From assembly GCA_964461475.1 (NCBI GenBank), contig CAYWUK010000001.1, positions 1-28,639 of the forward strand: a stretch of 28,639 nt of DNA, written 5' to 3'. The notes beneath the pieces are model-generated. The model did no database searches, had not been told where the DNA came from, and saw only the letters and a list, made by a program, of their open reading frames with translations. The translations under genes were made by a program, and so were the position numbers. This document shows positions 10,093 through 28,639 of this stretch, in pieces (the first letter of the stretch is position 1; each line of letters starts with the position of its first letter). Origin of the DNA: an uncultured Dehalococcoidaceae bacterium. Its GTDB lineage: Bacteria; Chloroflexota; Dehalococcoidia; Dehalococcoidales; RBG-16-60-22.

Positions 10093-13000
10093 GTGATGCC
10101 GACTGCCCGGGGACGGGTTTTTACCGCATTTATAGCGTTACCACTGGTGCTTATCCTCGCGTGCTCGGTAATGCCTGGTCTGAGCGGCTTGTCATATGCG
10201 GCAAATATCGCCCTGGCCGACCCAGCGCCTGACCTCATCGTTCAGAACATCACCTGGTCTCCGGATAACCCGTCGATAGGGGAAACCGTCAATTTCACCG
10301 TCATTATAAAGAACCAGGGCAGCGGCCAGGCTGATGCTTCAGCTGTTGCCTACTGCATTGACAATGCCTATATTGCTGAGAATGCAGTTAATCCGCTAAG
10401 CCCCGGCGCCACATCTGTGAAAACATTCGCATGGACCGCCACAGCGGGCTCGCACGCCATAAAGGCAGTTGCCGACAGCAATAGCCAGGTTGCAGAAGGC
10501 GACGAGAATAACAATGAGAAAACGCACGTTTTCACCACCCTTGCGCCCGACCTCATCATACAGAGCATCGCCTGGTCTCCGGATAGTCCTTCAAGGGGCG
10601 ATGCCATAACCTTCGCCATCAATGTAAAGAACCAGGGCAACAGCGCGGTCAGCTCTTCGCTTGTTTACTTCTATATTGATGGCAATTCCCGGGGCTACAC
10701 TGATGCTCGAAAAATAAATGCCGGCGCCACAGTCGCTACAACTTTCACCTGGACGGCGAAGGAAGGCTCGCACACCATCAGGGCGGTTGTTGACCAGGAA
10801 AATTATATCGTGGAGAGCAACGAGAGCAATAATGAAAAGACGGTGAATTTCACAACATTGGCACCTGACCTAATCATTCAGAATATAACCTGGTCGCCGG
10901 ATAATCCCTCAAAAAATGATGATGTAACCTTCACCGTAGGCATTAAGAACCAGGGCAGCGGCCGGGCCGACAACTCCCACGTGGGCTACTATATTGATGG
11001 GGAATACCTGTCCTCAGCCTCTGTGGCGGTGCTTGAATCGGGCGCATCGGAAAACTATACCTTCGCCTGGACGGCGAAAGAGGGCTCACACGCCGTCAAA
11101 GCGGTTGCCGATTATAATAACTGGCTTTTTGAGAGCGATGAAACAAACAACGAAAAGGCGGTGAATTTCTCGCCGCTTGCGCCTGACCTGCTCATTCAGA
11201 ACATCACCTGGTCGCCGGAAAGTCCTTCGGCCGGGGATGTAGTGACGTTCTCCGTCACCATAAAGAACCAGGGCAGCGGCAAGGCCGATGAGTCAAAGAT
11301 AGGCCTTTATATTGGCGGCTTTTCCACGATTTATCAGGATGTTGCGGAGATTGATGCCGATGCTGAGCTGATAAAGACCTTCACCTGGACTGCCGAAGCG
11401 GGCTTACATCCTATCAGGGCGGTTGCCGATTCAGACAAGATGGTGGCCGAGAGCGACGAAGGCAACAACGATAAATCGGTTTCCTTCTCCACCCTCAGCC
11501 CTGACCTCGTTGTTCAGGATATCACCTGGTCTCCGCAGAATCCGTTAATAGGGGATGCGGTGGCATACACCGTAACCATAGAGAACCAGGGCAACGGCCA
11601 GGCCGCTAGCTCGCTGTTCGCTTACTATATTGATGATGCTTACCTCGGTGCCGCTTATGTTGACGCTTTAGATGCGGGTGCCTCGGCAAACAGCACCTTC
11701 ACCTGGGCGGCTGAGTCAGGGCTGCATACCATCAAAGCGGTGGCCGACTACAATACCATGGTTGTAGAGGGCGACGAGAGCAACAATGAGGGCACGGTAA
11801 AATTCTCGGCAGCCGCTCCGGACCTGTTCGTTGAGGCGTTAACATGGTCGCCGGCAAGCCCGTCGGCGGGGGACCTGGTAACCTTTACCGTCACCATAAA
11901 AAACAAGGGCAAGGTTGGGGCCGACAACTCACGCGTCGCCTACGATATTGATGGTTCCTCCATAGGCTACCAGGATATCAGGGCAATAGACGCCGCTGAG
12001 GGAGTAACGACGACCTTCACCTGGACTGCCGTGGCAGGGACTCACTCTATTAAGGCAGCCGCCGACGTGACAAATAACGTAACCGAGAGCGATGAGACCA
12101 ACAACATGAAGGCGGTAACCCTGCCTCCACCGGACATCGTGGTACAGGGCATCTCCTGGTCGCCGAAAAATCCGTCGGCAGGGGACGTGGTAAACTTCAC
12201 CGTCAACATAAAAAACCAGGGCAGCAGCCGGGTGGGCCCGTCTCGCATCACCTACTATATTGATGGCTTTTCCATAGGCGACCGCGATGTTCCAGCGATA
12301 GAGGCTGGCGCTGAGGCGAGCGATGGCTTCACCTGGACGGCTGTGGCAGGTTCGCACACCATCAAGGCGGTGGCCGACTTGGCCAATAACATCACCGAGA
12401 GCGTTGAGACCAACAATGAGAACACGGTGGCCATTTCCACCCTCGCCCCCGACCTTATTGTCCATGACATAAGCTGGTCGCTGGAGGGCGCGGAAAAGGA
12501 CAAGGACGTAACTTTCGCCATCGTCATAAAGAACCAGGGAAACGGCCGCTCGGGAGCATGCCGCATTAATTACTATATTGATGATTCAGCCATAGGTTAC
12601 CAGGAGGTTCCTGAGATAAATGCTGGCGCCGAGGTAACCAAGGGCTTCACCCGCACCGTTGCGGTGGGCTCGCACAGCCTGAGGGCGGTGGTCGACTCCA
12701 AGGAAGTGCTTATTGAGAGCGATGAGACTAATAATGAGAAGTTGGTGGATTTTTCCACCATCAGCCCGGACCTTGTCGTATCCAGCATTACATGGTCGCC
12801 GGCAAGCCCGTCGGCGGGGGATTTGGTAACCTTAACCGTCGCCATAAAGAACGAGGGCAGCGGCACGGCTGCCCCGTCCCGTATCACCTACTATATTGAT
12901 GATTCTCCCCTGGGTGGTCAGGATGTTCCAGCCGTAGCTGCGGGCACCGAGGTGAAACAGAGGTTCACCTGGACTGCCGAGGCGGGCTCGCACACCATCA

Positions 13001-13233
13001 AGGCAGTTGTTGATGTGGATGGCTATCTCGCCGAGGTTGATGAAGCCAATAACGAGGGCATGGCATCGCTGCCAGAGATAGAGAAGAAAAATCAGGCGAA
13101 AGGGCTAGTAGTAGTCGATTCGGCGGATAACGGAAATAAGATGGGCTGGTGGTGGTGGATTTCAATAGGTGGAGTAATAGCAGCCATCGCCTTCGCCTTC
13201 ACCATGATAAGGTCATGGCAGAAGTCCGGCTGA
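10093..13233 (+). CDS. Membrane-anchored surface protein with nine tandem CARDB-like (Ig-like) domains
   Basis: N-terminal signal or TM segment; nine ~105-aa units, each starting PD(L/I)xxxxxxWS and most containing KNQG, WTAxxGxHxIxAVxD and ExxExNN; C-terminal TM helix (WWWWISIGGVIAAIAFAFTMI) followed by a short basic tail. Confidence 0.9.
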   Translation: MMPTARGRVFTAFIALPLVLILACSVMPGLSGLSYAANIALADPAPDLIVQNITWSPDNPSIGETVNFTVIIKNQGSGQADASAVAYCIDNAYIAENAVNPLSPGATSVKTFAWTATAGSHAIKAVADSNSQVAEGDENNNEKTHVFTTLAPDLIIQSIAWSPDSPSRGDAITFAINVKNQGNSAVSSSLVYFYIDGNSRGYTDARKINAGATVATTFTWTAKEGSHTIRAVVDQENYIVESNESNNEKTVNFTTLAPDLIIQNITWSPDNPSKNDDVTFTVGIKNQGSGRADNSHVGYYIDGEYLSSASVAVLESGASENYTFAWTAKEGSHAVKAVADYNNWLFESDETNNEKAVNFSPLAPDLLIQNITWSPESPSAGDVVTFSVTIKNQGSGKADESKIGLYIGGFSTIYQDVAEIDADAELIKTFTWTAEAGLHPIRAVADSDKMVAESDEGNNDKSVSFSTLSPDLVVQDITWSPQNPLIGDAVAYTVTIENQGNGQAASSLFAYYIDDAYLGAAYVDALDAGASANSTFTWAAESGLHTIKAVADYNTMVVEGDESNNEGTVKFSAAAPDLFVEALTWSPASPSAGDLVTFTVTIKNKGKVGADNSRVAYDIDGSSIGYQDIRAIDAAEGVTTTFTWTAVAGTHSIKAAADVTNNVTESDETNNMKAVTLPPPDIVVQGISWSPKNPSAGDVVNFTVNIKNQGSSRVGPSRITYYIDGFSIGDRDVPAIEAGAEASDGFTWTAVAGSHTIKAVADLANNITESVETNNENTVAISTLAPDLIVHDISWSLEGAEKDKDVTFAIVIKNQGNGRSGACRINYYIDDSAIGYQEVPEINAGAEVTKGFTRTVAVGSHSLRAVVDSKEVLIESDETNNEKLVDFSTISPDLVVSSITWSPASPSAGDLVTLTVAIKNEGSGTAAPSRITYYIDDSPLGGQDVPAVAAGTEVKQRFTWTAEAGSHTIKAVVDVDGYLAEVDEANNEGMASLPEIEKKNQAKGLVVVDSADNGNKMGWWWWISIGGVIAAIAFAFTMIRSWQKSG

Positions 13234-18957: not shown

Positions 18958-19626
18958 CTAGTATTTGGAAGCGCCGATTTCTTCCATCTTGCCGGTAACG
19001 ATGAACACTATTCGCTCGCAGATGTTGGTCACCCTGTCGGCGCTGCGCTCCAGGTTGTGTGCCACCCAGATGAGCCGCGTTGCCCGGGTGATTGTCTTGG
19101 GGTCTTCCATCATGAAGGTGAGCAATTCCCTGAAGACCTGGTTATAGAGGTTATCAACTTCATCGTCAGCGGCGACAACCTGCTTGGCCGCATCGGCATC
19201 GCGGTTGACAAAGGCATCCAGGCTACGGTGCAGCATCTTGATGGTCTTTTCCGCCATGCGTGGTATATCAATAAGGGGTTTCAGTGGAGGCTCGTCGCCT
19301 ATCATCACCACTATCTTGGCGATGCCCACCGCATAATCTCCTATTCGCTCCAGTTCGGTTATGATGTTGAGCACGCAGATTATAATGCGCAGGTCGCCGG
19401 CCATGGGTTGCTGGGTTGCGATGAGTTGAATGCATTTTTCCTCTATCTCAAACCTCTTCCGGTTTATTTTGGCGTCATCGGCTATCAATTGCTTCGCCTT
19501 GGTCAGGTCTCTTTCCTTCAAAGCCTCAATGGAATAGCCGATTGCTTTCTCAACCATGCTCCCCATGACCAGGATATCGTCCTGGATTTCCCGCAACCTC
19601 TTATGAAAGCCTGCTCTCATCTCCAT
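18958..19626 (-). CDS. phoU: Phosphate signalling complex protein PhoU
   Basis: Two PhoU repeats: QPMAGDLR...ELERIGDYA and ADDEVD...LERSADRVTNICE; SD GGAGGT. Confidence 0.96.
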   Translation of the reverse strand: MEMRAGFHKRLREIQDDILVMGSMVEKAIGYSIEALKERDLTKAKQLIADDAKINRKRFEIEEKCIQLIATQQPMAGDLRIIICVLNIITELERIGDYAVGIAKIVVMIGDEPPLKPLIDIPRMAEKTIKMLHRSLDAFVNRDADAAKQVVAADDEVDNLYNQVFRELLTFMMEDPKTITRATRLIWVAHNLERSADRVTNICERIVFIVTGKMEEIGASKY

Positions 19627-19730
19627 GGCTCTACCTCCTTTGATTCCGACCTAAGCTCCCGGCGATGTAGTCTTTATACGTTTATCTTTAGACTTAGGCC
19701 ATTTGTTCTCATTTGCCTATAGTTTACAGG

Positions 19731-19774
19731 ATTAATCTTAAAGATGCTTTAAGGCAGTGTTAATGCTATGTTAA
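19731..19774 (-). promoter_or_regulatory. Pho-box-like array of four direct repeats at 11-bp period upstream of phoU
   Basis: Minus strand: TTAACATAGCA TTAACACTGCC TTAAAGCATCT TTAAGATTAAT, followed after 4 nt by a -10-like TAAACT (19721-19726). Confidence 0.75.
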
Positions 19775-19785
19775 TTTTTAACGGC

Positions 19786-20481
19786 TCAGCCTTCCAGTTT
19801 ATAGCCTGTTCCCCTGACTGTTATCAGATGGCTGGGTTTGTGGGGGTCAGGCTCAAATTTTTGTCTTAACCAGCGGACATGGACATCCACGGTGCGAGTG
19901 TCGCCGGCGAAATCATAGCCCCATACCTTTTCCAGGAGTTGCTCGCGGCTGAAGACGAAGCCCTTGTTCCGGGCGAGGAAAGCGAGCAGGTCAAACTCCT
20001 TCGGGGTGAGTTCCAGCGCTTCTGCTCTGAGCGTGGCGCTGTGGCGGGCGAGGTCAATCTCAAGGTCGTTGACTTTTAGCAGCGTTCTCTCAGTTGCTGG
20101 CGGCGGTTCTCCAGCCCTGCCCCGCCGCATCATGGCCCTTACGCGGGCTATCAGCTCTCTCATGCTGAAGGGCTTGGTCATATAGTCGTCAGCGCCGATT
20201 TCAAGGCCGACTATTTTGTCGGTCTCTTCTGCTTTTGCGGTGAGCATGATGATGAGGGCATTCATCTCCTTACGCAGGACACGGCACACCTCAAATCCGC
20301 TCATCTTGGGCAGCATTATATCAAGGATGATGAGCCCAGGCTTTTCTCCGCGAGCGGTCTCAATAGCCTCTGCGCCATCTGTGGCCGTAGCGATGCTGTA
20401 GCCCTCTTTCTCAAGGTTATACTTGAGGGTGCTTAACAGGTTTGGGTCGTCTTCAACAATTAGAATCTTATCGTCGCTCAC
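19786..20481 (-). CDS. OmpR/PhoB-family response regulator, probably PhoP/PhoB
   Basis: ILIVEDD, LDIMLP, MLTAK, GADDYMTKPF, LTPKEFDLL, SREQLL, RTVDVH, TVRGTGY. The likely start is the GTG at 20481 (231 aa). It sits next to phoU and the Pho-box-like array. Confidence 0.9.
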   Translation of the reverse strand: MSDDKILIVEDDPNLLSTLKYNLEKEGYSIATATDGAEAIETARGEKPGLIILDIMLPKMSGFEVCRVLRKEMNALIIMLTAKAEETDKIVGLEIGADDYMTKPFSMRELIARVRAMMRRGRAGEPPPATERTLLKVNDLEIDLARHSATLRAEALELTPKEFDLLAFLARNKGFVFSREQLLEKVWGYDFAGDTRTVDVHVRWLRQKFEPDPHKPSHLITVRGTGYKLEG

Positions 20482-20499
20482 TGGAATCCCATTGCTAGT

Positions 20500-20528
20500 A
20501 GTATAAGCCCGATGAAGCGTTCTAGCAA
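20500..20528 (-). promoter_or_regulatory. sigma70-type promoter of the response regulator
   Basis: The minus strand reads TTGCTA-N17-TATACT, ending 19 nt upstream of the GTG at 20481. Confidence 0.65.
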
Positions 20529-20681
20529 ATGGCGTCGGCAAAACTATTTTTAAAGCTGTGTTTATTTAGGGAAGCGGGCGATTGTTGTGGCGTTGGGGCA
20601 GCGTTTTCTTCTATATATAGAGGTGGTGGTGTCTTAGAGGGAGCGTTGCGAAGGTTCTGCTTTTGTCCTATGTAACGCCAT

Positions 20682-20715
20682 AAAATAATAAAAGGCGTAG
20701 CTCAAACTACGCCTT
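20682..20715 (-). terminator. Probable intrinsic terminator after the 50-aa ORF
   Basis: Perfect 9-bp stem AAGGCGTAG/CTACGCCTT with a 6-nt loop, followed on the minus strand by TTATTATTTT. Confidence 0.65.
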
Positions 20716-20774: not shown

Positions 20775-20927
20775 TTAAATGCGCACGCCGACCTGGTTAG
20801 CGCTTTTTCTCAGCGACTTAGACTGCTTCCAGCTCTGGCGCAGGGCGCTGAATAACCCGGCCCAGATAAGCAGCGGGGCACAACAACCGGTAAGCAAAGC
20901 TAATGTACAGTTACGCAGTCGCTTCAC
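20775..20927 (-). CDS. Unannotated 50-aa small membrane protein or lipoprotein
   Basis: GTG start preceded by AAGGGGGT; translates to MKRLRNCTLALLTGCCAPLLIWAGLFSALRQSWKQSKSLRKSANQVGVRI; flanked by a candidate promoter and terminator; below the length cutoff of the ORF track. Confidence 0.65.
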   Translation of the reverse strand: MKRLRNCTLALLTGCCAPLLIWAGLFSALRQSWKQSKSLRKSANQVGVRI

Positions 20928-21009: not shown

Positions 21010-21081
21010 TGGATTAAATTCCGTGTTTTTATGTCGCCAATAGCTCGTTTTTTATAGGAAATAGCCCTGTTAATATCGGGT

Positions 21082-21115
21082 AAAAACAAAACTCTAACCT
21101 GAAGTTAGAGTTTTG
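21082..21115 (-). terminator. Probable intrinsic terminator of the ccm/kinase/regulator unit
   Basis: Perfect 12-bp stem CAAAACTCTAAC/GTTAGAGTTTTG with a 5-nt loop, followed on the minus strand by TTTTT; 50 nt after the regulator stop. Confidence 0.7.
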
Positions 21116-21164: not shown

Positions 21165-21806
21165 TTAGTTGCTAATCAGGCCTTTGTGCAGGGCGTATCT
21201 GATGAGCTGGGTGCGATTGTGTATGCCCAGCTTTTGCATTATCTTGGTGCGGTGGCCCAGGACGGTTTTTAGGGAAACGACGAGCTTGTCGGCAATCTCC
21301 CTGCTGGTGTGGCCCTCGGCGATTAGCTTAAGAATCTCCCTCTCCCTTGCCGTCAGGCGGTCATATGGCTCTTGTTTGGCCATGCGCAGGTAGTCCTCAA
21401 TGAGGGTTGTGGTTGCTGAGGGGTATAAGAAGGAGCCGCCTTTGTGCACGGCGCGTATCGCCGATACCAGTTCCGAAGCCAGCGCCCGCTTGGATACGTA
21501 TCCAGCAACTCCTACCTTGATGGCGGATAATACGTATTCCCGGTTGTCGTGTTGGGTCAATACCAGTATCTTCACCCTGGTATTTTTCTTCTTTATGCGG
21601 CGTGCAGCTTCCAGGCCGTCCATGCCGGGCATGGCTATGTCCATTATGATAACATCAGGGTCAAGCTCCTGTGCCTTCTCAATGGCCTCATTTCCTTCCG
21701 ATGCCTCGCCTATTATCTCAATGTCGTCCTGGGGCTCTAGCAGGGCGCGGATGCCCTCTCTCATCATGGCGTGGTCATCTACAATCATTATCTTAATCTT
21801 ATCCAT
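21165..21806 (-). CDS. NarL/LuxR-family response regulator
   Basis: IMIVDDH, IMDIAMPGMDG, LVLTQH, LTAREREILKLIAEG, SLKTVLGHRTKIMQKL. The ATG overlaps the kinase stop by 8 nt. Confidence 0.95.
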   Translation of the reverse strand: MDKIKIMIVDDHAMMREGIRALLEPQDDIEIIGEASEGNEAIEKAQELDPDVIIMDIAMPGMDGLEAARRIKKKNTRVKILVLTQHDNREYVLSAIKVGVAGYVSKRALASELVSAIRAVHKGGSFLYPSATTTLIEDYLRMAKQEPYDRLTAREREILKLIAEGHTSREIADKLVVSLKTVLGHRTKIMQKLGIHNRTQLIRYALHKGLISN

Positions 21807-24117
21807 TGGCCCCCTCCTTTTTTAATGGGATTTCAATGACAATCTTCGTGCCAGCGCCTGCGGGGCGCGATTTAATGTTCATGGTGCCGTTCAGGATTTC
21901 CACCCTCTCCTTCATGCCGAGGAGCCCCAGGCCACGTGGCCTCTCCTTTGAGCTTATCGCTTCCTGGACATCGAAGCCGATGCCGTCATCCTTAACCTGT
22001 ATGCTGATGGTGCCCTTTTTAAAGCGTAAGCTTATATCGGCTTTCCTGGCATGGGCATGTTTGGTGATGTTGCTGGTTGCTTCCTGGACGACGCGGAACA
22101 GGGTTGCCTCTATCTGCGGGGGCAACCTTTCCTCCTGCCCTGACGTTTTGAAATTCACCTTTATACCGGTGGGGCGCAGGCTCTCCTCAAGCTGCGACCT
22201 CACCGCAGCGACAAGCCCCATATCATCAAGCAGGCTGGGACGAAGTTCATATATCATCCTGTGTATCTCGTCCAGGATGCGGATGGATAAGTCCTGTGCC
22301 CTTTGCAATATGTCCTTAGCCTTCTCTTTATTGTCCGGCAGCAAATTTGATGCTGCGGCGAGGTTGGCGGTGAGGCTTGCCAGCACCTGGCTCGTTTCGT
22401 CATGCAGCTCGCGGGCTATCCTCTTCCTTTCTTCCTCCTGGATGGAGAATATCTCCCGCAGCAGTTCGCCCCGAACCTCATCCTTGCGCTGCACTTCCTG
22501 GTGCAGCCTGGCGTTTTCTACGGCGTTGGCTATCTGCCTGGCGATTCCATGCAGAAGGCGCACTTCTTCCGGCGAGAATTTGCAGGCCTGATGGCTGGCA
22601 ATGTTGAGCACGCCGAGGATTTTCCCCTTGGAGCGCAGGGGGATGCTGACAAATGCCCGCAGCCTTTCGGCGGAGATTAGGTCGGGGTGGGCAGCGCGGC
22701 GGTCGGCTGAAATATCTTCGAGCAGTATAGCCTCTCCGGTCTGGGCTACCTTTCCTGCTATGCCCTCGCCTAAGTGTAACCTCATATTTCGAGTGTATTT
22801 CTGCGAGAGTCCGCGGTGAACGCGGTAACTCAGAACCTGTTTTTCTTCATCCAGCAGGATTATGCCCCCGATGTCCTGGTTCGTTATCTCCAGGGTCTTA
22901 TCCAGAGCGCTGCCCAGCGCCGTATTCAGATTGGATAAATCGGCCAGGGAAGCAAGGGTCTCCGACACGGCGAGCAGGGAAGAGAGCTCTTTCGTCCTCT
23001 GCTCAAGCTCTCCGTAGGACTTTTTGAGCTTGGATCTCATGTCCTCAAAGGTCTGGGCCAGTATGCCCACCTCATCTTTCTGCGCGGTGTTTATCGGACT
23101 GGTCAGGTCTCCGTTAGCTATCCTTTTTGAGGCAGCGGTGAGCATCCTGATGCGCCCCAGGACGTCGCGCGTTATTATGACGATTATTACGAAGGCAATG
23201 GCGATTAAAGCAGCACCGAAGAAGAGCAGGTTCTGGCGTAACTCGTGAACGGGGGCAAGCGCCTCATTCTCAGATTGCCTGATGACGACCCCCCAATGAG
23301 CCTGGGAGAGGGGGACAAAGGCCAGCACATCCCTTCTTTCTACTTTTTGCACCGGCTCATGGCAGGTGTGGCACACGCCGCGAGTCGGCTCTCCGCGAGC
23401 AATCAACTCGGCAAAACGGCCGCTGTGGTCGCTCTTCTCAAATGGGGCCAGCGCGGGGCCCGGCTCCGTCCTGGCGACCACTATGCCGTTCTGGTCCACA
23501 ATCTCCGCGTAGCCCGTATGCCCCATTTTTATGGGGCGGACGAATCCACCAATGCTTGATTGAGCAATGTCAATAGCGGCGACAAGAGCGCCTTTGCTCT
23601 CCGCCCCTCCCTCTTTAACCGGGCTGATGATTAATACCACTGGCGTGTCGGTTGCTAGAGATAAAACGAGCCCGGATATAGTCTCTACGCCAGTTTTGAT
23701 AGTTTGCCCTATGCTGGGATAAAGGGACATGTCTTCACCTTCTAATTCCGGGGTGTCCGGTTCGCTCCATATAATTCGTTCCTGGTCATCAACGAGATAG
23801 ATGGCGTTGATATAAATTGACCACTCCCGATAATTATCTTCCAGGTTTTCTATCTGGGGTTTGATGTTTTCCTTTGCCTCGTTGATTTTTATGGCCTGGG
23901 CGGTGTCTCTGAGCTCAATGAGTGCGCGCCCCAGCGATTCATCCAGGTAGTCTGCCACCAGGTCGGCGGTGGTCAGCCGGTCCTGTAACATTGCCTCTGT
24001 AGCCTGGTTCACCGCTCGCATGCCTATGAAGCTGAACACGCCGACTGCCAGGACTAGCCCCAGCGCGGTGAGCAGGGCGATTTTCTTCACCAGCGTTAGC
24101 TTGGAAAGGAACTTCAT
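21799..24117 (-). CDS. Sensor histidine kinase: TM, dCache-like domain with CXXCH, TM, HAMP, GAF, HisKA_3, HATPase
   Basis: TM1 at about residues 13-32; Cache features IYLVDDQERII and GYAEIVDQNGIVVAR, then VCHTCHEP; TM2; HAMP (GDLTSPI...DEVGILAQTF); GAF (SIPLRSKGKILGVLNI); ERKRIARELHDE H-box; FRVVQEATSNITKHA, DDGIGF and GLGLLGMKER. Confidence 0.93.
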   Translation of the reverse strand: MKFLSKLTLVKKIALLTALGLVLAVGVFSFIGMRAVNQATEAMLQDRLTTADLVADYLDESLGRALIELRDTAQAIKINEAKENIKPQIENLEDNYREWSIYINAIYLVDDQERIIWSEPDTPELEGEDMSLYPSIGQTIKTGVETISGLVLSLATDTPVVLIISPVKEGGAESKGALVAAIDIAQSSIGGFVRPIKMGHTGYAEIVDQNGIVVARTEPGPALAPFEKSDHSGRFAELIARGEPTRGVCHTCHEPVQKVERRDVLAFVPLSQAHWGVVIRQSENEALAPVHELRQNLLFFGAALIAIAFVIIVIITRDVLGRIRMLTAASKRIANGDLTSPINTAQKDEVGILAQTFEDMRSKLKKSYGELEQRTKELSSLLAVSETLASLADLSNLNTALGSALDKTLEITNQDIGGIILLDEEKQVLSYRVHRGLSQKYTRNMRLHLGEGIAGKVAQTGEAILLEDISADRRAAHPDLISAERLRAFVSIPLRSKGKILGVLNIASHQACKFSPEEVRLLHGIARQIANAVENARLHQEVQRKDEVRGELLREIFSIQEEERKRIARELHDETSQVLASLTANLAAASNLLPDNKEKAKDILQRAQDLSIRILDEIHRMIYELRPSLLDDMGLVAAVRSQLEESLRPTGIKVNFKTSGQEERLPPQIEATLFRVVQEATSNITKHAHARKADISLRFKKGTISIQVKDDGIGFDVQEAISSKERPRGLGLLGMKERVEILNGTMNIKSRPAGAGTKIVIEIPLKKEGANG

Positions 24118-24217: not shown

Positions 24218-24370
24218 TCAAAATTCAATGCCCTTTTTCTTAAGGGCGTCTTTTAGCGAGTTGATTTCGCGTCGGAGCCTGCGCTGCCTGTTGAACAGGG
24301 TGAGCACATAGCCGAAAAGCAGCGCCCATATAATGGTGTAGGCGGCAAATAAGTAGCCTGCGTTCTCCAT
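24218..24370 (-). CDS. ccmD: Heme exporter protein D (CcmD-family), 50 aa, missed by the ORF track
   Basis: MENAGYLFAAYTIIWALLFGYVLTLFNRQRRLRREINSLKDALKKKGIEF: a YLxxAY TM helix plus a basic coiled coil; SD GAGGAG; directly downstream of ccmC. Confidence 0.85.
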   Translation of the reverse strand: MENAGYLFAAYTIIWALLFGYVLTLFNRQRRLRREINSLKDALKKKGIEF

Positions 24371-24396: not shown

Positions 24397-25074
24397 TTAT
24401 TGAGTGTCCAATTCCTTAATGATATCTACTTCAATTTCGTCGTGCTTCAGCGAAATCCTTTGCGTCAGCAGAAGCAAATACAATGTGGTGAAGGCGGCAA
24501 GACAGACCAGCAGCGTGAGCAGCATGGAGGGGGCCAGGCCACCCTGGAAGATGAGCGGGCCGGGGTGTTGCGTCCGCCACAGGGTGATTGCCAGGGCGAC
24601 GATGGGGACATCGATGAAGCCGACTATGCCCACCACTGCGGCAAAGCGCGCCCCCCTGGACTCCTCCGCAGCGAAGGAGCGTACCATGATATAGGCTATG
24701 TAGATGAGCCAGAGGACGAGCGCCGTGGTGAGCCTTGGTTCCCATACCCACCATACCCCCCAGATTGGTTTGGCCCAGATGGAGCCCGTTATCAGTACAA
24801 GCGTGGTGAAGACGATGCCCACCTCGGCCGATGAGCTGGCTATGATGTCCCATTTGCTGTCCCGTTTCCAGAGGTACAAAACGCTGCCCAGGAATACGTG
24901 AAAGAAGGCCAGGAAGGCCACCCAGGCCACCGGCACATGGAAATAGAATATCCGCTGCACGATGCCCATGGTCTGCTCGGTGGGGACCCACAGGAACACC
25001 AGGTAGAGGGCTGCTGCAAACAGGATGAAGTTCAATAACACCAGCCCCTTTTTTATTAAGCCGCTATCTTTCAT
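24397..25074 (-). CDS. ccmC: Heme exporter protein C (WWD family)
   Basis: RIFYFHVP, ITGSIWAKPIWGVWWVWEPRLT (WWD motif) and RTQHP. Confidence 0.93.
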   Translation of the reverse strand: MKDSGLIKKGLVLLNFILFAAALYLVFLWVPTEQTMGIVQRIFYFHVPVAWVAFLAFFHVFLGSVLYLWKRDSKWDIIASSSAEVGIVFTTLVLITGSIWAKPIWGVWWVWEPRLTTALVLWLIYIAYIMVRSFAAEESRGARFAAVVGIVGFIDVPIVALAITLWRTQHPGPLIFQGGLAPSMLLTLLVCLAAFTTLYLLLLTQRISLKHDEIEVDIIKELDTQ

Positions 25075-25083
25075 GTTTCTCCT

Positions 25084-25755
25084 CTATTCTTCAATGACGA
25101 AGGAAAATACTATAAGCGATACCACAAGAAAAATGGCGTCAAAAGCCACTATTATCTGGAGCCAGGGTGCCAGGCCAGACCAGGATGCTCCGGAGAGGGC
25201 GGCCGCGGAAGCCTTGACCGCAGCGATGATTATGGGGACAACAATGGGCAGGAAAAGGATGGGCAGCACCATCTCCCTCGCTTTGGTGTTTACGGCCAGG
25301 GCGGAGAACAGGGTGCCCACGGAGACGAAGCCAAGCGTGGCCAGGAATGTGACCAGGATAATCTGTGGTATGAGCACGGGCAGATTGAAGAGGAAAGCGA
25401 AGGCGGGCAGGGCTATCGCTTCAATGATTAGCATAAAGAGCAGGCTCCCGAGCATCTTGCCGGTGTAGATTACCTCCCGGCTTACCGGGCAGAGCATCAG
25501 CCCTTCCATGCAGCCCTGTTCCTTCTCCGGGACGAAGGAGCGGTTCAGGCTCAGCACTCCGGCGAAGGCGAAGGTCACCCACAGCATGCCCGGCCCCAGC
25601 AGCCCTGCCATCTCCTGTCCCGACTCAAAGGCAAAGTTGAAGATGACTATCACCAGCAGGGTGAAGACCAGCACCGAGAAGATAATCTCCCTGGTTCGCA
25701 TCTCAGAGATGATGTCTTTCCAGGTGATGGTCATGACCTTTTGCCAGAAATTCAT
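25084..25755 (-). CDS. ccmB: Heme exporter protein B
   Basis: WKDIISEMRTRE, LSLNRSFVPEKEQGCMEGL, LPILFLPIVVPIIIAAV. Confidence 0.93.
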   Translation of the reverse strand: MNFWQKVMTITWKDIISEMRTREIIFSVLVFTLLVIVIFNFAFESGQEMAGLLGPGMLWVTFAFAGVLSLNRSFVPEKEQGCMEGLMLCPVSREVIYTGKMLGSLLFMLIIEAIALPAFAFLFNLPVLIPQIILVTFLATLGFVSVGTLFSALAVNTKAREMVLPILFLPIVVPIIIAAVKASAAALSGASWSGLAPWLQIIVAFDAIFLVVSLIVFSFVIEE

Positions 25756-26483
25756 GCTTCCACCTTGGTGCTTTGGTTATAGGTGTTTTTCAGGGCGGCC
25801 AGGTCCAGCAGTTGGCTTGACCCCTGGTAAACGATTTTCCCCCTGTCCAGAATCAACAGGCGCTCGCCCAGCTCTAGCCCGCGCTCCAGGTTATGGGTAG
25901 TGAGGATGGTGGTTGTTTCCCCTTCTCTTTGCAGGGCCTCCCAGAGAATTGATATGGCCTGCTGGTCCAGCCCCGTTTCTGGCTCATCCAGCAGCATTAT
26001 GCTCGGCCTGTGCAGCAGGCAGCGGGCGATGGCCAGCCTCTGCTGCATGCCCCGGGAAAGGGTGCACACCCTGTCGTGAAGTCTGGGCGCCATCTCCACC
26101 ATCGTTGCCAGCTCGTGTATTCGCTCTTCGTACGCGGGCACATCATACATGCGGCTGTAGAATTTCAGGTTTTCATATGCGGTGAGGTTGCCGTAGAGGA
26201 AAGTCTGGTGGCTGACCACGCCGATTCTGCGCCGGACTGCCTCGGCATCCTTTTTGAGGTCCAGGCCGTCAATAGTGACCTTTCCCGATGTTGGGTTCAT
26301 AATGGTGGCCAGCAGCTTGATTAAGGTGGTCTTGCCCGCACCGTTGGGGCCGAAGATTACCAGGGACTCGCCCCGTCTTACCTCCAGGTCTATCCCCCTC
26401 AGAGCGGGGCGATTGCCGAAGGACTTGGTTAGGCCCTCGATTTCGATTGCCAGGGCCTGAGCAGCGGAGGCGGATTTTTCCAT
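25752..26483 (-). CDS. ccmA: Heme ABC exporter ATP-binding protein
   Basis: GPNGAGKTT, LSRGMQQRL and LLDEPETGLD; ATGA overlap with ccmB. Confidence 0.9.
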   Translation of the reverse strand: MEKSASAAQALAIEIEGLTKSFGNRPALRGIDLEVRRGESLVIFGPNGAGKTTLIKLLATIMNPTSGKVTIDGLDLKKDAEAVRRRIGVVSHQTFLYGNLTAYENLKFYSRMYDVPAYEERIHELATMVEMAPRLHDRVCTLSRGMQQRLAIARCLLHRPSIMLLDEPETGLDQQAISILWEALQREGETTTILTTHNLERGLELGERLLILDRGKIVYQGSSQLLDLAALKNTYNQSTKVEA

Positions 26484-26495
26484 TATGCTCTGTTA

Positions 26496-27650
26496 CTATC
26501 CTCTTCTGGAGTTGATTAGCCTGACCAGCTGCGACTTCTTTTCGGCGCGCAACCTGTGGTATTCGTCTTCTTGAATTTTGCCTTCGGCGAAGGCATCGTC
26601 CAGCCCGGCAAGCTCAGCGAGCAATCTCTGGCTTTCCTCTTCTGGTCCAAGTTCGCCTCCGGCTTCTACCGGCCGGGCTTGCCTCTTCCTCAGCAGGAAA
26701 TAGCCCGCGCCAAAAACGGCAGCGAGCAGCACCAGCGTAAGGGCTGTCCAGGTGACGGCTCCTGGCCCGCTGCCTCCGGGCAGGTCGGAGAGTTTTACCA
26801 CTATAGCCTCGCCGGGGGCAATGCCAGTTGTGGAAAGGTGAGTGAAGAGGTTACTCTGGATGGTCAGCGTCTCTCCTGCGTCCATCTGTTCGCTGGCGAC
26901 TTTGACCGTGTCCCCCTGTACCAGAAGGTCGTAATTCATTGTGGGGTAATTAGCGTGATAGATGAAGCTATAAGCCCCTGAGCTGTAGGGGGCCTGGTAG
27001 GAGTAAGCCACCTCCCTGGAGCCGGGCAGGAGCGGCATGCCCTCGGTGAAACCATCCGCCTGACCATAAATGCAGCAATCCATCAGGCCCATGGTAGGTT
27101 GAAATCCAGTAGCCCCCTGCGGCAGGAAGAATCTGATGGTATCCTTGTCATCTTCGGCGCTCGGCCCTATGTAAGCACGGTCGGCTGTGTTGACGAACAT
27201 GGCGTATTCATTCACCTCAAGCTCGCCTTCGCCTATGTATATTACGGTGTGGGCTGACATAACGCTGACGGCATCTTTGCTGGTAGTGGAATCATAGACG
27301 ACGACCTCGGCAAATTTGCTGGTGGTGCTATCATCAAAGCTGAGCGCTTCGCTGTCATAACTCGCGTTCTGGAAGTCGATGGCCGCCTGGTAGCTGTAAC
27401 CTGGCTCGGTTGACAGGCCTGCAAAAGTGAAATAGCCTTCGCCGTCAGTCCTGGTGGTAGCTGAGTCCACCTCTGCGCCATTCAGGGAGGTCTTGAGGGT
27501 TATTTCCTGGTCGGCCACGCTGCTGCCATCCGCAGTCTTGTTTACAACGAGTCCATCTATTACGCCATTGCCCGGCTCGGCGGCTATGGCAGAGGCCGCT
27601 GGACTGAGTGTGATGGCCAATATTATTAATAAGGCAATGCGTTTGAACAT
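26496..27650 (-). CDS. Ccm-associated hypothetical membrane protein (signal peptide, beta-sandwich ectodomain, TM, CcmI-like helical tail)
   Basis: Signal peptide MFKRIALLIILAITLSPAASAIA; carboxypeptidase-regulatory-like start (TRTDGEGYFTFAGL); TM at about residues 300-322; tail LAELAGLDDAFAEGKIQEDEYHRLR. Confidence 0.75.
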   Translation of the reverse strand: MFKRIALLIILAITLSPAASAIAAEPGNGVIDGLVVNKTADGSSVADQEITLKTSLNGAEVDSATTRTDGEGYFTFAGLSTEPGYSYQAAIDFQNASYDSEALSFDDSTTSKFAEVVVYDSTTSKDAVSVMSAHTVIYIGEGELEVNEYAMFVNTADRAYIGPSAEDDKDTIRFFLPQGATGFQPTMGLMDCCIYGQADGFTEGMPLLPGSREVAYSYQAPYSSGAYSFIYHANYPTMNYDLLVQGDTVKVASEQMDAGETLTIQSNLFTHLSTTGIAPGEAIVVKLSDLPGGSGPGAVTWTALTLVLLAAVFGAGYFLLRKRQARPVEAGGELGPEEESQRLLAELAGLDDAFAEGKIQEDEYHRLRAEKKSQLVRLINSRRG

Positions 27651-27659
27651 CTTTCTCCC

Positions 27660-28073
27660 TCAGCTCAGTTTGGCGCCACATTGAGAGCAGAAGCGGTCGC
27701 CCGCCTGATATCTTGCCCCGCATTGGGGGCAGAACTGCTTTTTGACCTGGCGCAGCTTCAGGACGTGGCTCTCTATTTCATCTTCAATATTTTGCGGGCT
27801 TTCCTTCAGGCCATCCATGTCTTTGAGAATGGAGACGGCCTTGCCCTTGTACCGCGCCTGCAGGTCGCGATAGTCCTCCTCCGAAAGGATGCCCGACTGG
27901 AAGTCAAATTCCAGCTCTTTGAGCATGGAGTAGGTAGTATCGCGTCTGGCGTGCAGTTCCTGCAATTCATCGCCCTCGGTTGAATCGACGCTATGCGGCC
28001 TTTGCCTGAAAAACGGGTAGATGATGAAAGCAAAAGCCAGTATGGTCAATAATATGGCAAAAAATACGGTCAC
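27660..28073 (-). CDS. CcmI-like N-terminal membrane protein with a C-terminal double zinc ribbon
   Basis: TM ending YPF, then LKELEFDFQSGILSEEDYRDL (CcmI-type helical hairpin), then CPQCG...FCSQCG. Confidence 0.75.
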   Translation of the reverse strand: MTVFFAILLTILAFAFIIYPFFRQRPHSVDSTEGDELQELHARRDTTYSMLKELEFDFQSGILSEEDYRDLQARYKGKAVSILKDMDGLKESPQNIEDEIESHVLKLRQVKKQFCPQCGARYQAGDRFCSQCGAKLS

Positions 28074-28552
28074 CGGAAGCTCCTTTCAGAAAACTCGGAC
28101 AGCTCCTTTTCAAGTCGGCGGCAGTATTCATCGTCTTCGTCAATCTTAATCGCGGACTCAAGCCTTCCCCTCTTCAGCCACCCCTTTATGGCGAGGTAGA
28201 TTATCCCTCCGCCAAAAATCAGCGCCACAAAGGGCATAATCCAGGCCATCAGGTTGAAACCTTTCTTGGGAGGCGCGGCCAGCACCTGCTCTCCGTAGCT
28301 GGCGACGAAGGACTGGATAATCTGTTCCTCTGATTGGCCCTGCTCCAGGTCCTGGTTTATCAGGGCGGTCATCGTCTCGCGCGTGCCACATTCGGCGTGG
28401 CTGCAATTGAGCAGGACGGAGTTGCAGCCGCACTGGCAGATAAGTTGTTTGGAGATGTCGCTTACTGTGGCGGCATCGGCCCGGGTGGGGAATAGGGAAA
28501 GTATAGCCAGCGCCAGGATTATGCTGAAATTCAGTTTTAATCGCATTTTCAT
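28070..28552 (-). CDS. ccmH: Cytochrome c biogenesis protein CcmH/CcmL-like
   Basis: Signal peptide, LICQCGC, GQSEEQIIQSFVASYGEQVLAAPPKKGFNLMAWIMP, then a TM helix. The start may be 28552 or 28546. Confidence 0.85.
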   Translation of the reverse strand: MKMRLKLNFSIILALAILSLFPTRADAATVSDISKQLICQCGCNSVLLNCSHAECGTRETMTALINQDLEQGQSEEQIIQSFVASYGEQVLAAPPKKGFNLMAWIMPFVALIFGGGIIYLAIKGWLKRGRLESAIKIDEDDEYCRRLEKELSEFSERSFR

Positions 28553-28639
28553 CCTCCGCTTTTTGAGGCCTGCCTTAGCAGCGGCGGGTGCCGCCGGTCA
28601 GGCCACAGGGTAATCATTCCGCCCAGCAACAATATCGCG
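28549..28639 (-). CDS. ccmF: 3' end of probable heme lyase CcmF (partial)
   Basis: Reads AILLLGGMITLWPDRRHPPLLRQASKSGG*, which resembles the CcmF C-terminal GG.xxLWP helix; the TGA overlaps the ccmH ATG (ATGA). Confidence 0.6.
   Translation of the reverse strand, partial: AILLLGGMITLWPDRRHPPLLRQASKSGG

What the first reader, a model, noticed from the sequence alone, without database searches (positions are those of the whole stretch)
21799..24117. Histidine kinase with a c-type heme attachment motif inside its extracytoplasmic Cache domain
Seen: between the two TM helices, the dCache-like sensor contains CHTCH (C249-H253, nt 23359-23373). These are the only cysteines in the ectodomain, and a spare His (H231, in SDHSG) lies nearby. 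Established: CXXCH motifs in exported domains are covalently heme-ligated by Ccm systems, and c-heme PAS-like sensors are known in Desulfovibrio (DcrA) and Geobacter chemoreceptors. Inference: this is a heme-c redox or gas (O2/NO/CO) sensor, with H253 as proximal ligand and H231 as a candidate distal ligand. A second, cytoplasmic GAF input feeds a HisKA_3 kinase and a NarL-type regulator. I do not recognise this dCache(CXXCH)-HAMP-GAF-HisKA_3 architecture as characterised.
Basis: partly seen in the sequence, partly recalled or inferred. Interest (0 to 1): 0.88.

Follow-up and report, generated by a model that had tools for sequence, protein, structure and literature searches.

The report
Heme-c double-Cache sensor kinase
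A membrane sensor kinase of an uncultured Dehalococcoidia bacterium carries a conserved site for covalently attached heme in the part of its outer sensor domain nearest the membrane, and it sits right after the genes that attach such heme, so it is probably a redox or gas sensor of a kind not yet described.

Summary
ORF 21799-24117 (-) encodes TM1, dCache_1, TM2, HAMP, GAF, HisKA_3 and HATPase, with CHTCH at residues 249-253. This is the only CXXCH in the window, and shuffling gives it by chance at 2e-4.

The motif is kept in 190 of 205 relatives. It lies between strands b3 and b4 of the membrane-proximal Cache module, which is the best-conserved part of the ectodomain.

The kinase directly follows a System I cluster (ccmF-H-I-x-A-B-C-D), and 17 Dehalococcoidia genomes share this order. 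Paralogs sit beside multiheme cytochrome/NrfC/NrfD operons.

Heme-c Cache sensors are already known (sCache_heme, PF11845; 2026 preprints). This protein and 63 relatives do not match that profile. They are double-Cache proteins from Chloroflexota, where sCache_heme is reported to be rare or absent. I therefore call it a new variant, probably of independent origin.

H231 is conserved but not heme-specific, because relatives without the motif keep it too. The exceptions, which carry H234 or C229, suggest that segment 229-234 supplies the distal ligand.

Heme attachment and the signal sensed remain untested.

The parts
21799..24117 (-). Sensor histidine kinase, 772 aa: TM1, dCache (CXXCH), TM2, HAMP, GAF, HisKA_3, HATPase_c
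24013..24081 (-). TM1 (about aa 13-35); the Lys-rich N-terminus is cytoplasmic
   Evidence: hydropathy; one continuous helix 9-75 in the AF2 model
23233..24012 (-). Extracytoplasmic double-Cache domain (aa 36-295)
   Evidence: Pfam dCache_1. AF2 model with pLDDT 82. Foldseek top hits are the dCache domains of PctA, KinD and rpHK1S-Z16.
23563..23823 (-). Membrane-distal Cache module (about aa 99-185), poorly conserved (1.48 bits per column)
23263..23523 (-). Membrane-proximal Cache module (about aa 199-285): b1 203-208, b2 212-216, helix 232-241, b3 245-248, CXXC turn 249-252, loop, b4 263-269, b5 275-282. This is the best-conserved part of the ectodomain (2.36 bits per column).
23359..23373 (-). 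CHTCH (C249, H250, T251, C252, H253). This is the candidate c-type heme attachment site, with H253 as the expected proximal ligand. H250 is conserved in 94% of CXXCH-bearing relatives.
23425..23427 (-). H231 codon (SDHSG), at the N-cap of helix 232-241. It is a candidate distal ligand, conserved in 91% of CXXCH-bearing relatives but also in relatives without the motif.
23278..23280 (-). R280 codon on b5. It is Arg in 91% of CXXCH-bearing relatives against 12% of relatives without the motif, and is a candidate partner for a heme propionate (inference).
23164..23232 (-). TM2 (about aa 296-318), continuous with the helix that leaves b5 of the proximal module
23023..23175 (-). HAMP domain (aa 315-365)
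22516..22932 (-). GAF domain (aa 396-534)
22231..22431 (-). HisKA_3 dimerisation/phosphoacceptor domain (aa 563-629), with the H-box ARELH572DETSQ
21820..22110 (-). HATPase_c catalytic domain (aa 670-766), with N, G1 and G2 boxes present
21165..21806 (-). NarL/LuxR-family response regulator (Response_reg + GerE). Its start overlaps the kinase stop by 8 nt.
24218..24370 (-). CcmD-like 50-aa single-TM ORF between ccmC and the kinase. It is conserved in 17 related loci, 62-160 nt upstream of the kinase in 15 of them; in two loci (L033, L060) the called gap is about 400-455 nt.
   Evidence: the Pfam CcmD_alt match is only weak (E=0.13)
24397..25074 (-). ccmC
25084..25755 (-). ccmB
25752..26483 (-). 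ccmA (ABC ATPase)
26496..27650 (-). 384-aa protein of unknown function: signal peptide, Ig-like/CarboxypepD_reg-like domain and a C-terminal TM. It is conserved inside the ccm cluster.
27660..28073 (-). CcmI-like N-terminus plus a zinc ribbon
28070..28552 (-). ccmH
28549..28638 (-). 3' end of ccmF, which runs off the window
   Evidence: compare CcmF in L003
20775..20927 (-). Conserved 50-aa single-TM ORF downstream of the regulator, ending at a strong hairpin terminator (20715..20692). It is a possible target or accessory gene.

Best explanation
This is a two-component sensor kinase whose signal-receiving element is, I infer, a c-type heme covalently bound in the membrane-proximal module of an extracytoplasmic double-Cache domain.

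Proposed mechanism, step by step:
1. The ectodomain (aa 36-295) is exported between TM1 and TM2 (shown by sequence).
2. The System I Ccm machinery encoded immediately upstream attaches heme to C249 and C252, with H253 as proximal ligand (inferred from the established rule for exported CXXCH).
3. The distal face is closed by a residue from segment 229-234, which is H231 in this protein. That would give a low-spin bis-His heme, with R280 near the propionates (inferred).
4. A change in the oxidation state of the heme, set by the redox poise of the extracytoplasmic electron-transfer chain, changes its coordination. This moves b5 and the helix that runs straight into TM2 (inferred, by analogy with GSU0582/GSU0935).
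5. The signal passes through HAMP and GAF to the HisKA_3 kinase (H572) and the NarL-type regulator (domain order shown, activity inferred).
6. The regulator most likely adjusts genes for cytochrome c biogenesis or respiratory cytochromes (inferred from conserved gene neighbourhoods; no target is shown).

I put covalent heme binding at about 0.8. The full statement, with redox state rather than a gas as the signal, is at about 0.45.
For: CXXCH is real and not due to chance. It is kept in every homolog that covers the region in the first search and in 190 of 205 family sequences, including 50%-identity cluster representatives.

The motif lies in a short helical turn between b3 and b4 of the proximal Cache module. 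This is the same topological site as in the characterised sCache_heme family (PMC12889525).

Conservation is concentrated in the proximal module (2.36 against 1.48 bits). Some residues are specific to the CXXCH-bearing group: R280 (91% against 12%) and D230 (88% against 36%).

Exceptions to H231 carry His at 234 (11 of 17) or Cys at 229 (3), and positions 231 and 250 co-vary.

The kinase follows ccmF-H-I-x-A-B-C-D directly. That order recurs in 17 loci from 17 genomes.

Paralogs sit upstream of SPFH, multiheme cytochrome c, NrfC-like and NrfD operons, or of FeS, NrfD-like and monoheme cytochrome operons. 27 of 68 loci have an ORF with four or more hemes in the flanks.

The kinase and regulator motifs are intact.
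Against: There is no experimental evidence that heme is attached.

H231 is equally conserved in relatives without CXXCH, so it predates the motif.

No coordinates of the AF2 model were available, so the H231-to-CXXCH geometry could not be measured. The loop after CXXCH has low confidence (pLDDT 59; below 50).

No sequence or fold match to any solved heme-c sensor was found.

The characterised signalling members of sCache_heme behave as NO sensors, not redox sensors (PMC12889525).

No regulatory target was identified. Genes downstream of the regulator vary between genomes.

The near-invariant H250 inside CHxCH is not needed for heme attachment and remains unexplained.
Confidence: 0.45

Rival explanations
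1. The protein has the same heme-c dCache sensor, but the signal is a diatomic gas (NO, O2 or CO) that binds the ferrous heme or displaces the distal ligand. This is how the signalling-type sCache_heme receptors work.
For: The sCache_heme receptor fused to signalling modules binds NO with a slow off-rate and forms no stable oxy complex (PMC12889525; 10.64898/2026.05.25.727664). The distal position varies between lineages (H231, H234 or C229), as expected for tunable ligand displacement. Strict anaerobes would benefit from sensing O2 or NO outside the membrane (inference).
Against: A conserved distal His would favour a six-coordinate heme, which is less typical of NO sensors. The characterised NO-binding sCache_heme receptor lacks the axial Cys and was predicted five-coordinate, its low-spin spectrum being attributed to a bound water. 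The gene neighbourhoods are cytochrome biogenesis and quinone/cytochrome modules. No NO-detoxifying or denitrification genes were seen in the loci that were annotated.
Confidence: 0.27
2. No heme is attached. C249, C252 and the neighbouring His residues (H250, H253, H231) form either a metal site (Zn, Cu or Fe) or a thiol/disulfide redox switch in the proximal Cache pocket.
For: H250 is 94% conserved although heme attachment does not require it, and H231 is older than the CXXCH motif. Two Cys plus two or three His would be a plausible metal site (inference).
Against: The exact spacing C-x-x-C-H is invariant in 190 sequences, whereas H250 can be Tyr or Phe. There is tight, conserved linkage to ccm genes and c-type cytochromes. 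Arg280 is specific to the CXXCH-bearing group.
Confidence: 0.1
3. The ccm-linked copy reports on the Ccm pathway itself. As a Ccm client, its apo/holo ratio would signal heme supply or maturation capacity and feed back on cytochrome c biogenesis.
For: The kinase follows ccmD within 62-160 nt in 15 of 17 genomes, with larger called gaps in L033 and L060, while the genes after the regulator vary. The same sensor cassette is wired to a second kinase beside cytochrome operons.
Against: This rests on neighbourhood alone. No regulator binding site or target is known, and the ccm promoter lies outside the window. Linkage could simply reflect a shared need for Ccm.
Confidence: 0.08
4. The heme, if present, is only structural. 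The real signal is a small molecule bound in the distal Cache module, as in ordinary dCache_1 receptors.
For: Most dCache_1 receptors bind ligands in the distal module, as in the Foldseek matches PctA, CtaA and Mlp24.
Against: The distal module is the least conserved part (1.48 bits, with only 5 columns above 3 bits) and shows no conserved polar pocket motif. Conservation peaks in the proximal module.
Confidence: 0.05

Closest known systems
sCache_heme (DUF3365/Tll0287-like, PF11845): the P. azotoformans Cache_heme-HAMP receptor, Geobacter GSU0582/GSU0935 and Tll0287 (PMC12889525; 10.64898/2026.05.25.727664; PMC8396549)
   Same: Both are extracytoplasmic Cache-fold sensors with a conserved CXXCH in a short helical element between b3 and b4. 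Both lie between two TM helices, are followed by HAMP and are fused to signalling outputs. Heme c is attached by Ccm.
   Different: The known family is a single Cache module, whereas this protein is a double Cache (dCache_1) with the motif in the membrane-proximal module. PF11845 gives no match for the window protein even at E<=10, or for 63 relatives at E<=0.001. The solved members 5B82, 3B47 and 3B42 did not appear in the PDB sequence or fold searches. The known family is reported as rare or absent in Chloroflexota, while every locus found here is Chloroflexota. Relatives without the motif have a loop of the same length, so the site looks evolved in place rather than inserted.
DcrA of Desulfovibrio vulgaris (methyl-accepting protein with a periplasmic c-type heme; cited in PMC8396549)
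   Same: It has a periplasmic c-heme sensor proposed to sense redox potential or oxygen in an anaerobe. From my memory, unverified here, its motif is CHHCH, which resembles the CHxCH conserved here.
   Different: DcrA is a chemoreceptor, not a histidine kinase. Its sensor domain was not compared here because no sequence was available.
Ordinary dCache_1 receptors (PctA, CtaA, Mlp24/37, KinD, rpHK1S-Z16)
   Same: The fold and Pfam family are the same: a long N-terminal helix and two stacked Cache modules between two TM helices.
   Different: Those receptors have no cofactor and mostly bind small ligands in the distal module. Here the distal module is poorly conserved, and the proximal module carries CXXCH and the conserved residues.
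HisKA_3/NarL-type two-component systems (NarX/NarQ-NarL, UhpB, LiaS)
   Same: The transmitter core and the GerE-type regulator are of this class.
   Different: All NCBIfam matches are far below their cutoffs and cover only the kinase core, and the sensor domain is unrelated.

Membership tests
sCache_heme (PF11845, DUF3365/Tll0287-like) | Significant match to the PF11845 profile | tested here: not met
   PF11845 gave no hit for the full protein (E<=0.01), for the ectodomain or either half (E<=10), or for any of 63 family members (E<=0.001).
sCache_heme (PF11845, DUF3365/Tll0287-like) | Single Cache module | tested here: not met
   The AF2 model shows two stacked Cache modules. All Foldseek top hits are dCache domains. 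The Pfam match is dCache_1.
sCache_heme (PF11845, DUF3365/Tll0287-like) | Conserved CXXCH in an element between b3 and b4 of the Cache fold | tested here: met
   CHTCH 249-253 follows b3 (245-248) and precedes b4 (263-269). It is conserved in 190 of 205 sequences.
sCache_heme (PF11845, DUF3365/Tll0287-like) | Sequence or fold similarity to the solved members (5B82, 3B47, 3B42) | tested here: not met
   Profile searches of PDB sequences with the ectodomain and with the proximal module did not find them. They are absent from the top 50 Foldseek hits for both models. The apo models and weak scores make the fold test soft.
sCache_heme (PF11845, DUF3365/Tll0287-like) | Covalently bound heme c | not testable with these tools
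   This needs expression with Ccm, heme stain, pyridine hemochrome and mass spectrometry.
dCache_1 (PF02743) | Pfam match above the gathering score | tested here: met
   61.8 bits against a cutoff of 45. All 63 relatives scanned match.
dCache_1 (PF02743) | Two-module fold with a long N-terminal helix between two TM helices | tested here: met
   AF2 model with pLDDT 82. Foldseek matches to PctA, KinD and rpHK1S-Z16 with E of 1e-10 to 1e-12.
dCache_1 (PF02743) | Cofactor-free ligand pocket in the distal module | tested here: inconclusive
   The distal module is the least conserved region. No pocket motif was recognised, and ligand binding was not testable.
System I (Ccm) substrates, that is c-type cytochromes in the broad sense | CXXCH in a segment exported across the cytoplasmic membrane | tested here: met
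   The motif lies between TM1 and TM2, with HAMP after TM2.
System I (Ccm) substrates, that is c-type cytochromes in the broad sense | The organism encodes the maturation system | tested here: met
   ccmF (3' end), ccmH, a ccmI-like gene, ccmA, ccmB, ccmC and a ccmD-like ORF lie directly upstream. ccmE and ccmF are found in the orthologous locus L003.
HisKA_3 kinase with NarL-family regulator | HisKA_3 H-box, HATPase N/G boxes and an adjacent Response_reg + GerE regulator | tested here: met

The most novel reading that the evidence does not exclude
This is a second, independently evolved family of cofactor-bearing Cache sensors. In it, a c-type heme site arose in place in the membrane-proximal module of a dCache_1 domain within Chloroflexota (Dehalococcoidia). 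The unit TM1-dCache(heme)-TM2-HAMP behaves as an exchangeable cassette. Within one genome the cassette is kept nearly identical on two unrelated kinase cores. One is a HisKA_3/NarL system attached to the ccm operon. The other is an OmpR-type system attached to a multiheme cytochrome/NrfCD operon. One extracytoplasmic redox signal would thus control both cytochrome maturation and the respiratory module.
Probability: 0.45. Interest if true: 0.78.

Novelty: new variant of a known kind. Interest (0 to 1): 0.66.

Why it matters
Cache domains are the largest class of bacterial extracellular sensors. Until the 2026 sCache_heme work they were regarded as free of cofactors.

A double-Cache version, with no detectable relationship to PF11845, would show that heme-c sensing arose in the Cache fold more than once, at the same b3-b4 site. 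It would also show that the membrane-proximal module, usually treated as a passive relay, can be the primary sensor.

The finding also gives a concrete regulatory handle on cytochrome c biogenesis and multiheme respiratory modules in uncultured Dehalococcoidia, a group whose cultured members are known mainly for organohalide respiration (general knowledge). It identifies about 190 natural sequence variants, with H231, H234 or C229 as candidate distal ligands, for studying how heme coordination is tuned.

Tried and rejected
1. Membership in sCache_heme/PF11845 is rejected on sequence and has no support from PDB sequence or fold searches.

2. H231 as a heme-specific, co-conserved ligand is rejected in that form, because relatives without the motif keep it. 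It is kept as one option within segment 229-234.

3. A conserved Met, Lys or Tyr as distal ligand: no conserved Met or Lys exists in the ectodomain. Y203 is 87% conserved but lies on b1.

4. Measuring the H231-heme geometry was not possible, because no model coordinates are exposed.

5. A search for the contig of origin found that the exact protein is not on record.

6. Rfam found no RNA families in the window.

7. The hairpin at 24247..24230, scored as a terminator between ccmC and the kinase, lies inside the 3' end of the ccmD-like ORF and has a weak T-tract. It is therefore not good evidence for separate transcription.

8. Pfam does not identify the two small ORFs. The CcmD_alt match has E=0.13 only, and the 50-aa ORF downstream of the regulator has no hit.

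9. The weak match of the proximal module to cytochrome c' (1jaf, E=0.3) is not significant and is not used.

10. The direction of change (gain or loss of CXXCH) could not be rooted. Average-linkage clustering does not separate the relatives without the motif cleanly.

11. Literature searches found no double-Cache CXXCH sensor and no Dehalococcoidia ccm-linked kinase. The library does not hold most subscription journals.
Full report
**Observation.** The ORF at 21799..24117 on the minus strand encodes a 772-aa protein. CHTCH occupies residues 249-253, nt 23359-23373, exactly as reported.
- Hydropathy places TM1 at about 13-35 and TM2 at about 296-318.
- The Lys-rich N-terminus, the Arg-rich stretch after TM2 and the HAMP domain that follows put residues 36-295 outside the cell.
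- The ectodomain has only two Cys (C249, C252) and six His.
- Pfam gives dCache_1 (61.8 bits, cutoff 45), HAMP, GAF, HisKA_3 and HATPase_c.
- The next gene (21165..21806) is a Response_reg + GerE regulator whose start overlaps the kinase stop.
- The H-box (H572) and the ATP-binding boxes are intact.

The motif is the only CXXCH in any ORF of 40 aa or more in all six frames of the window. It arises in 2e-4 of shuffles of the ectodomain.

**Conservation.** A search with the N-terminal 338 aa found 31 relatives at 39-67% identity. Every one that covers the region keeps CxxCH; one apparently frameshifted sequence and two truncated ones do not cover it.

A profile search of 1.84 billion cluster representatives gave 1,808 hits at E<=1e-3 and 158 at E<=1e-30. 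I combined the best 150 with 68 genomic loci. Of 205 sequences covering the site, 190 have C-x-x-C-H in register.
- About 25 relatives lack the motif.
- Two of these are recent degenerations (CHTWPE, CHRCRE).
- The rest are more distant groups with a loop of the same length.

Named members of the CXXCH-bearing group are Chloroflexota or Dehalococcoidia. Named relatives without the motif are Anaerolineae proteins with other outputs. All 68 loci from the species-representative genome set are Dehalococcoidia or Chloroflexota MAGs. That scan used peptide patterns and so favours close relatives.

**Structure.** AF2 (pLDDT 82) predicts a typical double-Cache domain. Foldseek matches the dCache domains of PctA, KinD and rpHK1S-Z16.

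In the membrane-proximal module the order is b1 203-208, b2 212-216, helix 232-241 and b3 245-248. A one-turn helix made by CHTC (249-252) follows, then a low-confidence loop, b4 263-269 and b5 275-282. b5 runs into the helix that becomes TM2.

Conservation is concentrated in this module: 2.36 bits per column and 29 columns above 3 bits. The distal module has 1.48 bits and 5 such columns. The cofactor site, not the usual distal pocket, therefore looks like the business end.

**Candidate ligands.**
- H253 is invariant. This holds by construction within the CXXCH set, and for 93% of sequences overall.
- H231 is His in 91% of the CXXCH-bearing sequences but also in 15 of 16 relatives without the motif. 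It predates the motif and does not co-vary with it.
- Of the 17 CXXCH-bearing sequences without H231, 11 have His at 234 and three have Cys at 229.
- Positions 231 and 250 change together: 163 H/H, 9 non-H/non-H and 10 mixed (Fisher p = 2.5e-9). This is not corrected for phylogeny and probably reflects only three or four events.
- I read this as indirect support that segment 229-234 faces the iron, with H231 as the ligand in the window's protein.
- R280 (91% against 12%) and D230 (88% against 36%) are specific to the CXXCH-bearing group.
- No Met or Lys is conserved.
- The geometry could not be checked because no model coordinates are available.

Directly upstream on the same strand lie the following genes:

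| Gene | Window coordinates |
|---|---|
| 3' end of ccmF | 28549-28638 |
| ccmH | 28070-28552 |
| ccmI-like gene | 27660-28073 |
| conserved 384-aa exported protein | 26496-27650 |
| ccmA | 25752-26483 |
| ccmB | 25084-25755 |
| ccmC | 24397-25074 |
| 50-aa ccmD-like ORF | 24218-24370 |

The kinase starts 100 nt after the ccmD-like ORF.
- The order ccmH, ccmI-like gene, 384-aa gene, ccmA, ccmB, ccmC, ccmD-like ORF, then kinase recurs in 17 loci from 17 different genomes. In 15 of them the gap between the ccmD-like ORF and the kinase is 62-160 nt; in L033 and L060 the called gap is about 400-455 nt.
- In L003 the cluster continues upstream with ccmF, ccmE and two multiheme cytochromes.
- Genes after the regulator vary between genomes.

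**Paralogs.** 18 of the 46 genomes carry more than one copy. These paralogs fall into two further contexts:
- **Class B (at least 12 loci).** Kinase, OmpR-type regulator, single-domain receiver, SPFH protein, multiheme cytochrome c (4-10 CXXCH), NrfC-like FeS protein, NrfD.
- **Class C (about 10 loci).** Kinase, NarL-type regulator, SPFH protein, Tat-signal FeS protein, NrfD-like protein, monoheme cytochrome.

Overall, 27 of 68 loci have an ORF with four or more hemes in their flanks. The family is thus consistently tied to c-type cytochrome biology.

**A shared sensor cassette.** Residues 1-370 of the window's kinase are 63-68% identical both to ccm-linked orthologs and to the NrfCD-linked paralogs. 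The GAF domain of the paralogs is only about 30% identical, and their kinase core does not align at all.
- Ectodomain identity between the two paralogs of one genome reaches 71-78%.
- That exceeds the mean identity between orthologs of different genomes, which is 57%.
- In one genome (L003 against L001), DNA identity is 67-81% without gaps from the start codon to about nt 1230, then falls to about 36-45%.

This pattern indicates exchange or gene conversion of a cassette made of TM1, dCache, TM2 and HAMP between two different transmitter types.

**Comparison with what is known.** Periplasmic heme-c sensors are established: DcrA, GSU0582/GSU0935 and Tll0287 (PMC8396549).

Two 2026 preprints reclassified these as Cache domains, naming them sCache_heme (PF11845). 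They showed a CXXCH-bearing insertion between b3 and b4, and they showed that a receptor fused to signalling modules binds NO. They state that the family is rare or absent in Chloroflexota (PMC12889525; 10.64898/2026.05.25.727664).

The protein here shares the principle and the topological site of the motif, but it fails the membership tests:
- PF11845 gives no match for the window protein even at E<=10, or for any of 63 relatives at E<=0.001.
- It is a double Cache domain, not a single one.
- PDB sequence searches and Foldseek searches with two models do not retrieve 5B82, 3B47 or 3B42.

Relatives without the motif have the same loop length, which argues for evolution in place rather than insertion. 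Literature searches found no description of a double-Cache CXXCH sensor. I therefore rate it a new variant of a known kind, probably of convergent origin.

**Mechanism and confidence.**
- Covalent heme attachment: about 0.8.
- I favour redox-state sensing through a bis-His heme that switches coordination and drives TM2, HAMP, GAF, HisKA_3 and the NarL-type regulator. This is by analogy with the Geobacter sensors and fits the cytochrome-rich neighbourhoods. Overall confidence: about 0.45.
- Gas sensing, as in the sCache_heme NO receptor, is the main rival: 0.27.
- A heme-free metal or dithiol site: 0.1.
- A reporter of Ccm status: 0.08.
- A distal-pocket ligand sensor: 0.05.

No regulatory target was identified. 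A conserved 50-aa membrane ORF downstream of the regulator (20775-20927) is one candidate.

Noticed in passing
window 24218-24370 (-): A 50-aa single-TM ORF (MENAGYLFAAYTIIWALLFGYVLTLFNRQRRLRREINSLKDALKKKGIEF) lies between ccmC and the kinase and is conserved in 17 related loci. It is probably CcmD, but Pfam CcmD_alt gives only E=0.13. The terminator-like hairpin at 24247-24230 lies inside its 3' end.
   Followed up: partly
window 20775-20927 (-); terminator-like hairpins at 20715-20692 and about 21080-21113: A 50-aa single-TM ORF (MKRLRNCTLALLTGCCAPLLIWAG...) lies downstream of the regulator. It has an AT-rich hairpin before it and a strong hairpin terminator after it. It is conserved downstream of the kinase-regulator pair in L005, L027 and L011 and has no Pfam match. 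It may be a target or accessory of the system.
   Followed up: partly
L001 7896-10244 compared with L003 7893-10196 (same MAG); also the pairs L010/L002, L005/L068 and L006/L007: The sensor cassette (TM1, dCache, TM2, HAMP; about aa 1-410) of the ccm-linked HisKA_3 kinase and of the NrfCD-linked kinase in one genome is 71-78% identical. This is more than between orthologs of different genomes (57%). The kinase cores do not align, and the DNA identity has sharp boundaries, which suggests gene conversion or cassette exchange.
   Followed up: partly
L009 10270-15009; similar in L001, L008, L015, L025, L029, L037, L039, L054, L063, L065 and L068: A recurrent operon lies after the paralogous kinases: OmpR-type regulator, single-domain receiver, SPFH/Band 7 protein, multiheme cytochrome c (4-10 CXXCH), NrfC-like 4Fe-4S protein and NrfD membrane subunit.
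   Followed up: partly
L055 12383-16519; similar in L045, L053 and L056: A third context: kinase, NarL-type regulator, in L053 and L055 a second regulator, in L053, L055 and L056 a small protein that may bind cNMP, then SPFH (absent in L045), Tat-signal FeS protein, NrfD-like protein of about 450 aa and a monoheme cytochrome of about 355 aa. It is reminiscent of alternative complex III-type modules. Only the gene order was read; Pfam was not run on these proteins.
   Followed up: no
L063, L065, L066, P0092, P0112 (and P0139, P0144); P0099, P0121, P0134: There are sub-groups with alternative candidate distal ligands. One has ...TEYAxHF...CYRCH (Y231, H234, Y or F at 250). Another has ...W..CRY.DRF...CHDCH (Cys at 229), which recalls the Cys/His ligation of Tll0287.
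   Followed up: partly
P0124, P0130, P0101, P0110 and others (relatives without CXXCH): Anaerolineae relatives without CXXCH still keep the His equivalent to H231 (15 of 16) and carry other outputs (HDIG, GGDEF; up to 1,806 aa). What that His does without a covalent heme is unexplained; a non-covalent cofactor, a metal or a ligand are all possible.
   Followed up: no
L029 6737-9175; P0074: Two close family members have degenerate motifs (CHTWPE and CHRCRE). These could be recent losses, pseudogenes or assembly errors.
   Followed up: no
window 26496-27650 (-): A 384-aa protein has a signal peptide, a weak Ig-like/CarboxypepD_reg match and a C-terminal TM with a charged tail. It lies between the ccmI-like gene and ccmA and is conserved in 15 of the ccm-linked loci at 30-51% identity. 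It is an uncharacterised component of this Ccm cluster.
   Followed up: partly
L003 1066-1455: The CcmE of the orthologous cluster ends in ...KCPSKY, with Cys where the heme-binding His of classical CcmE (HxxxY) would be. From memory, this is the variant System I described in archaea and some sulfate reducers. The window itself does not reach ccmE.
   Followed up: no
window 18958-20541 (-): An OmpR/PhoB-type regulator (TTG start, 25-aa N-terminal extension) and PhoU have no adjacent histidine kinase. The next gene is a beta-CASP/metallo-beta-lactamase RNase-like protein.
   Followed up: no
window 10093-13233 (+): A 1,046-aa protein is built of nine CARDB repeats and is probably a cell-surface protein. 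It is unrelated to the finding.
   Followed up: no
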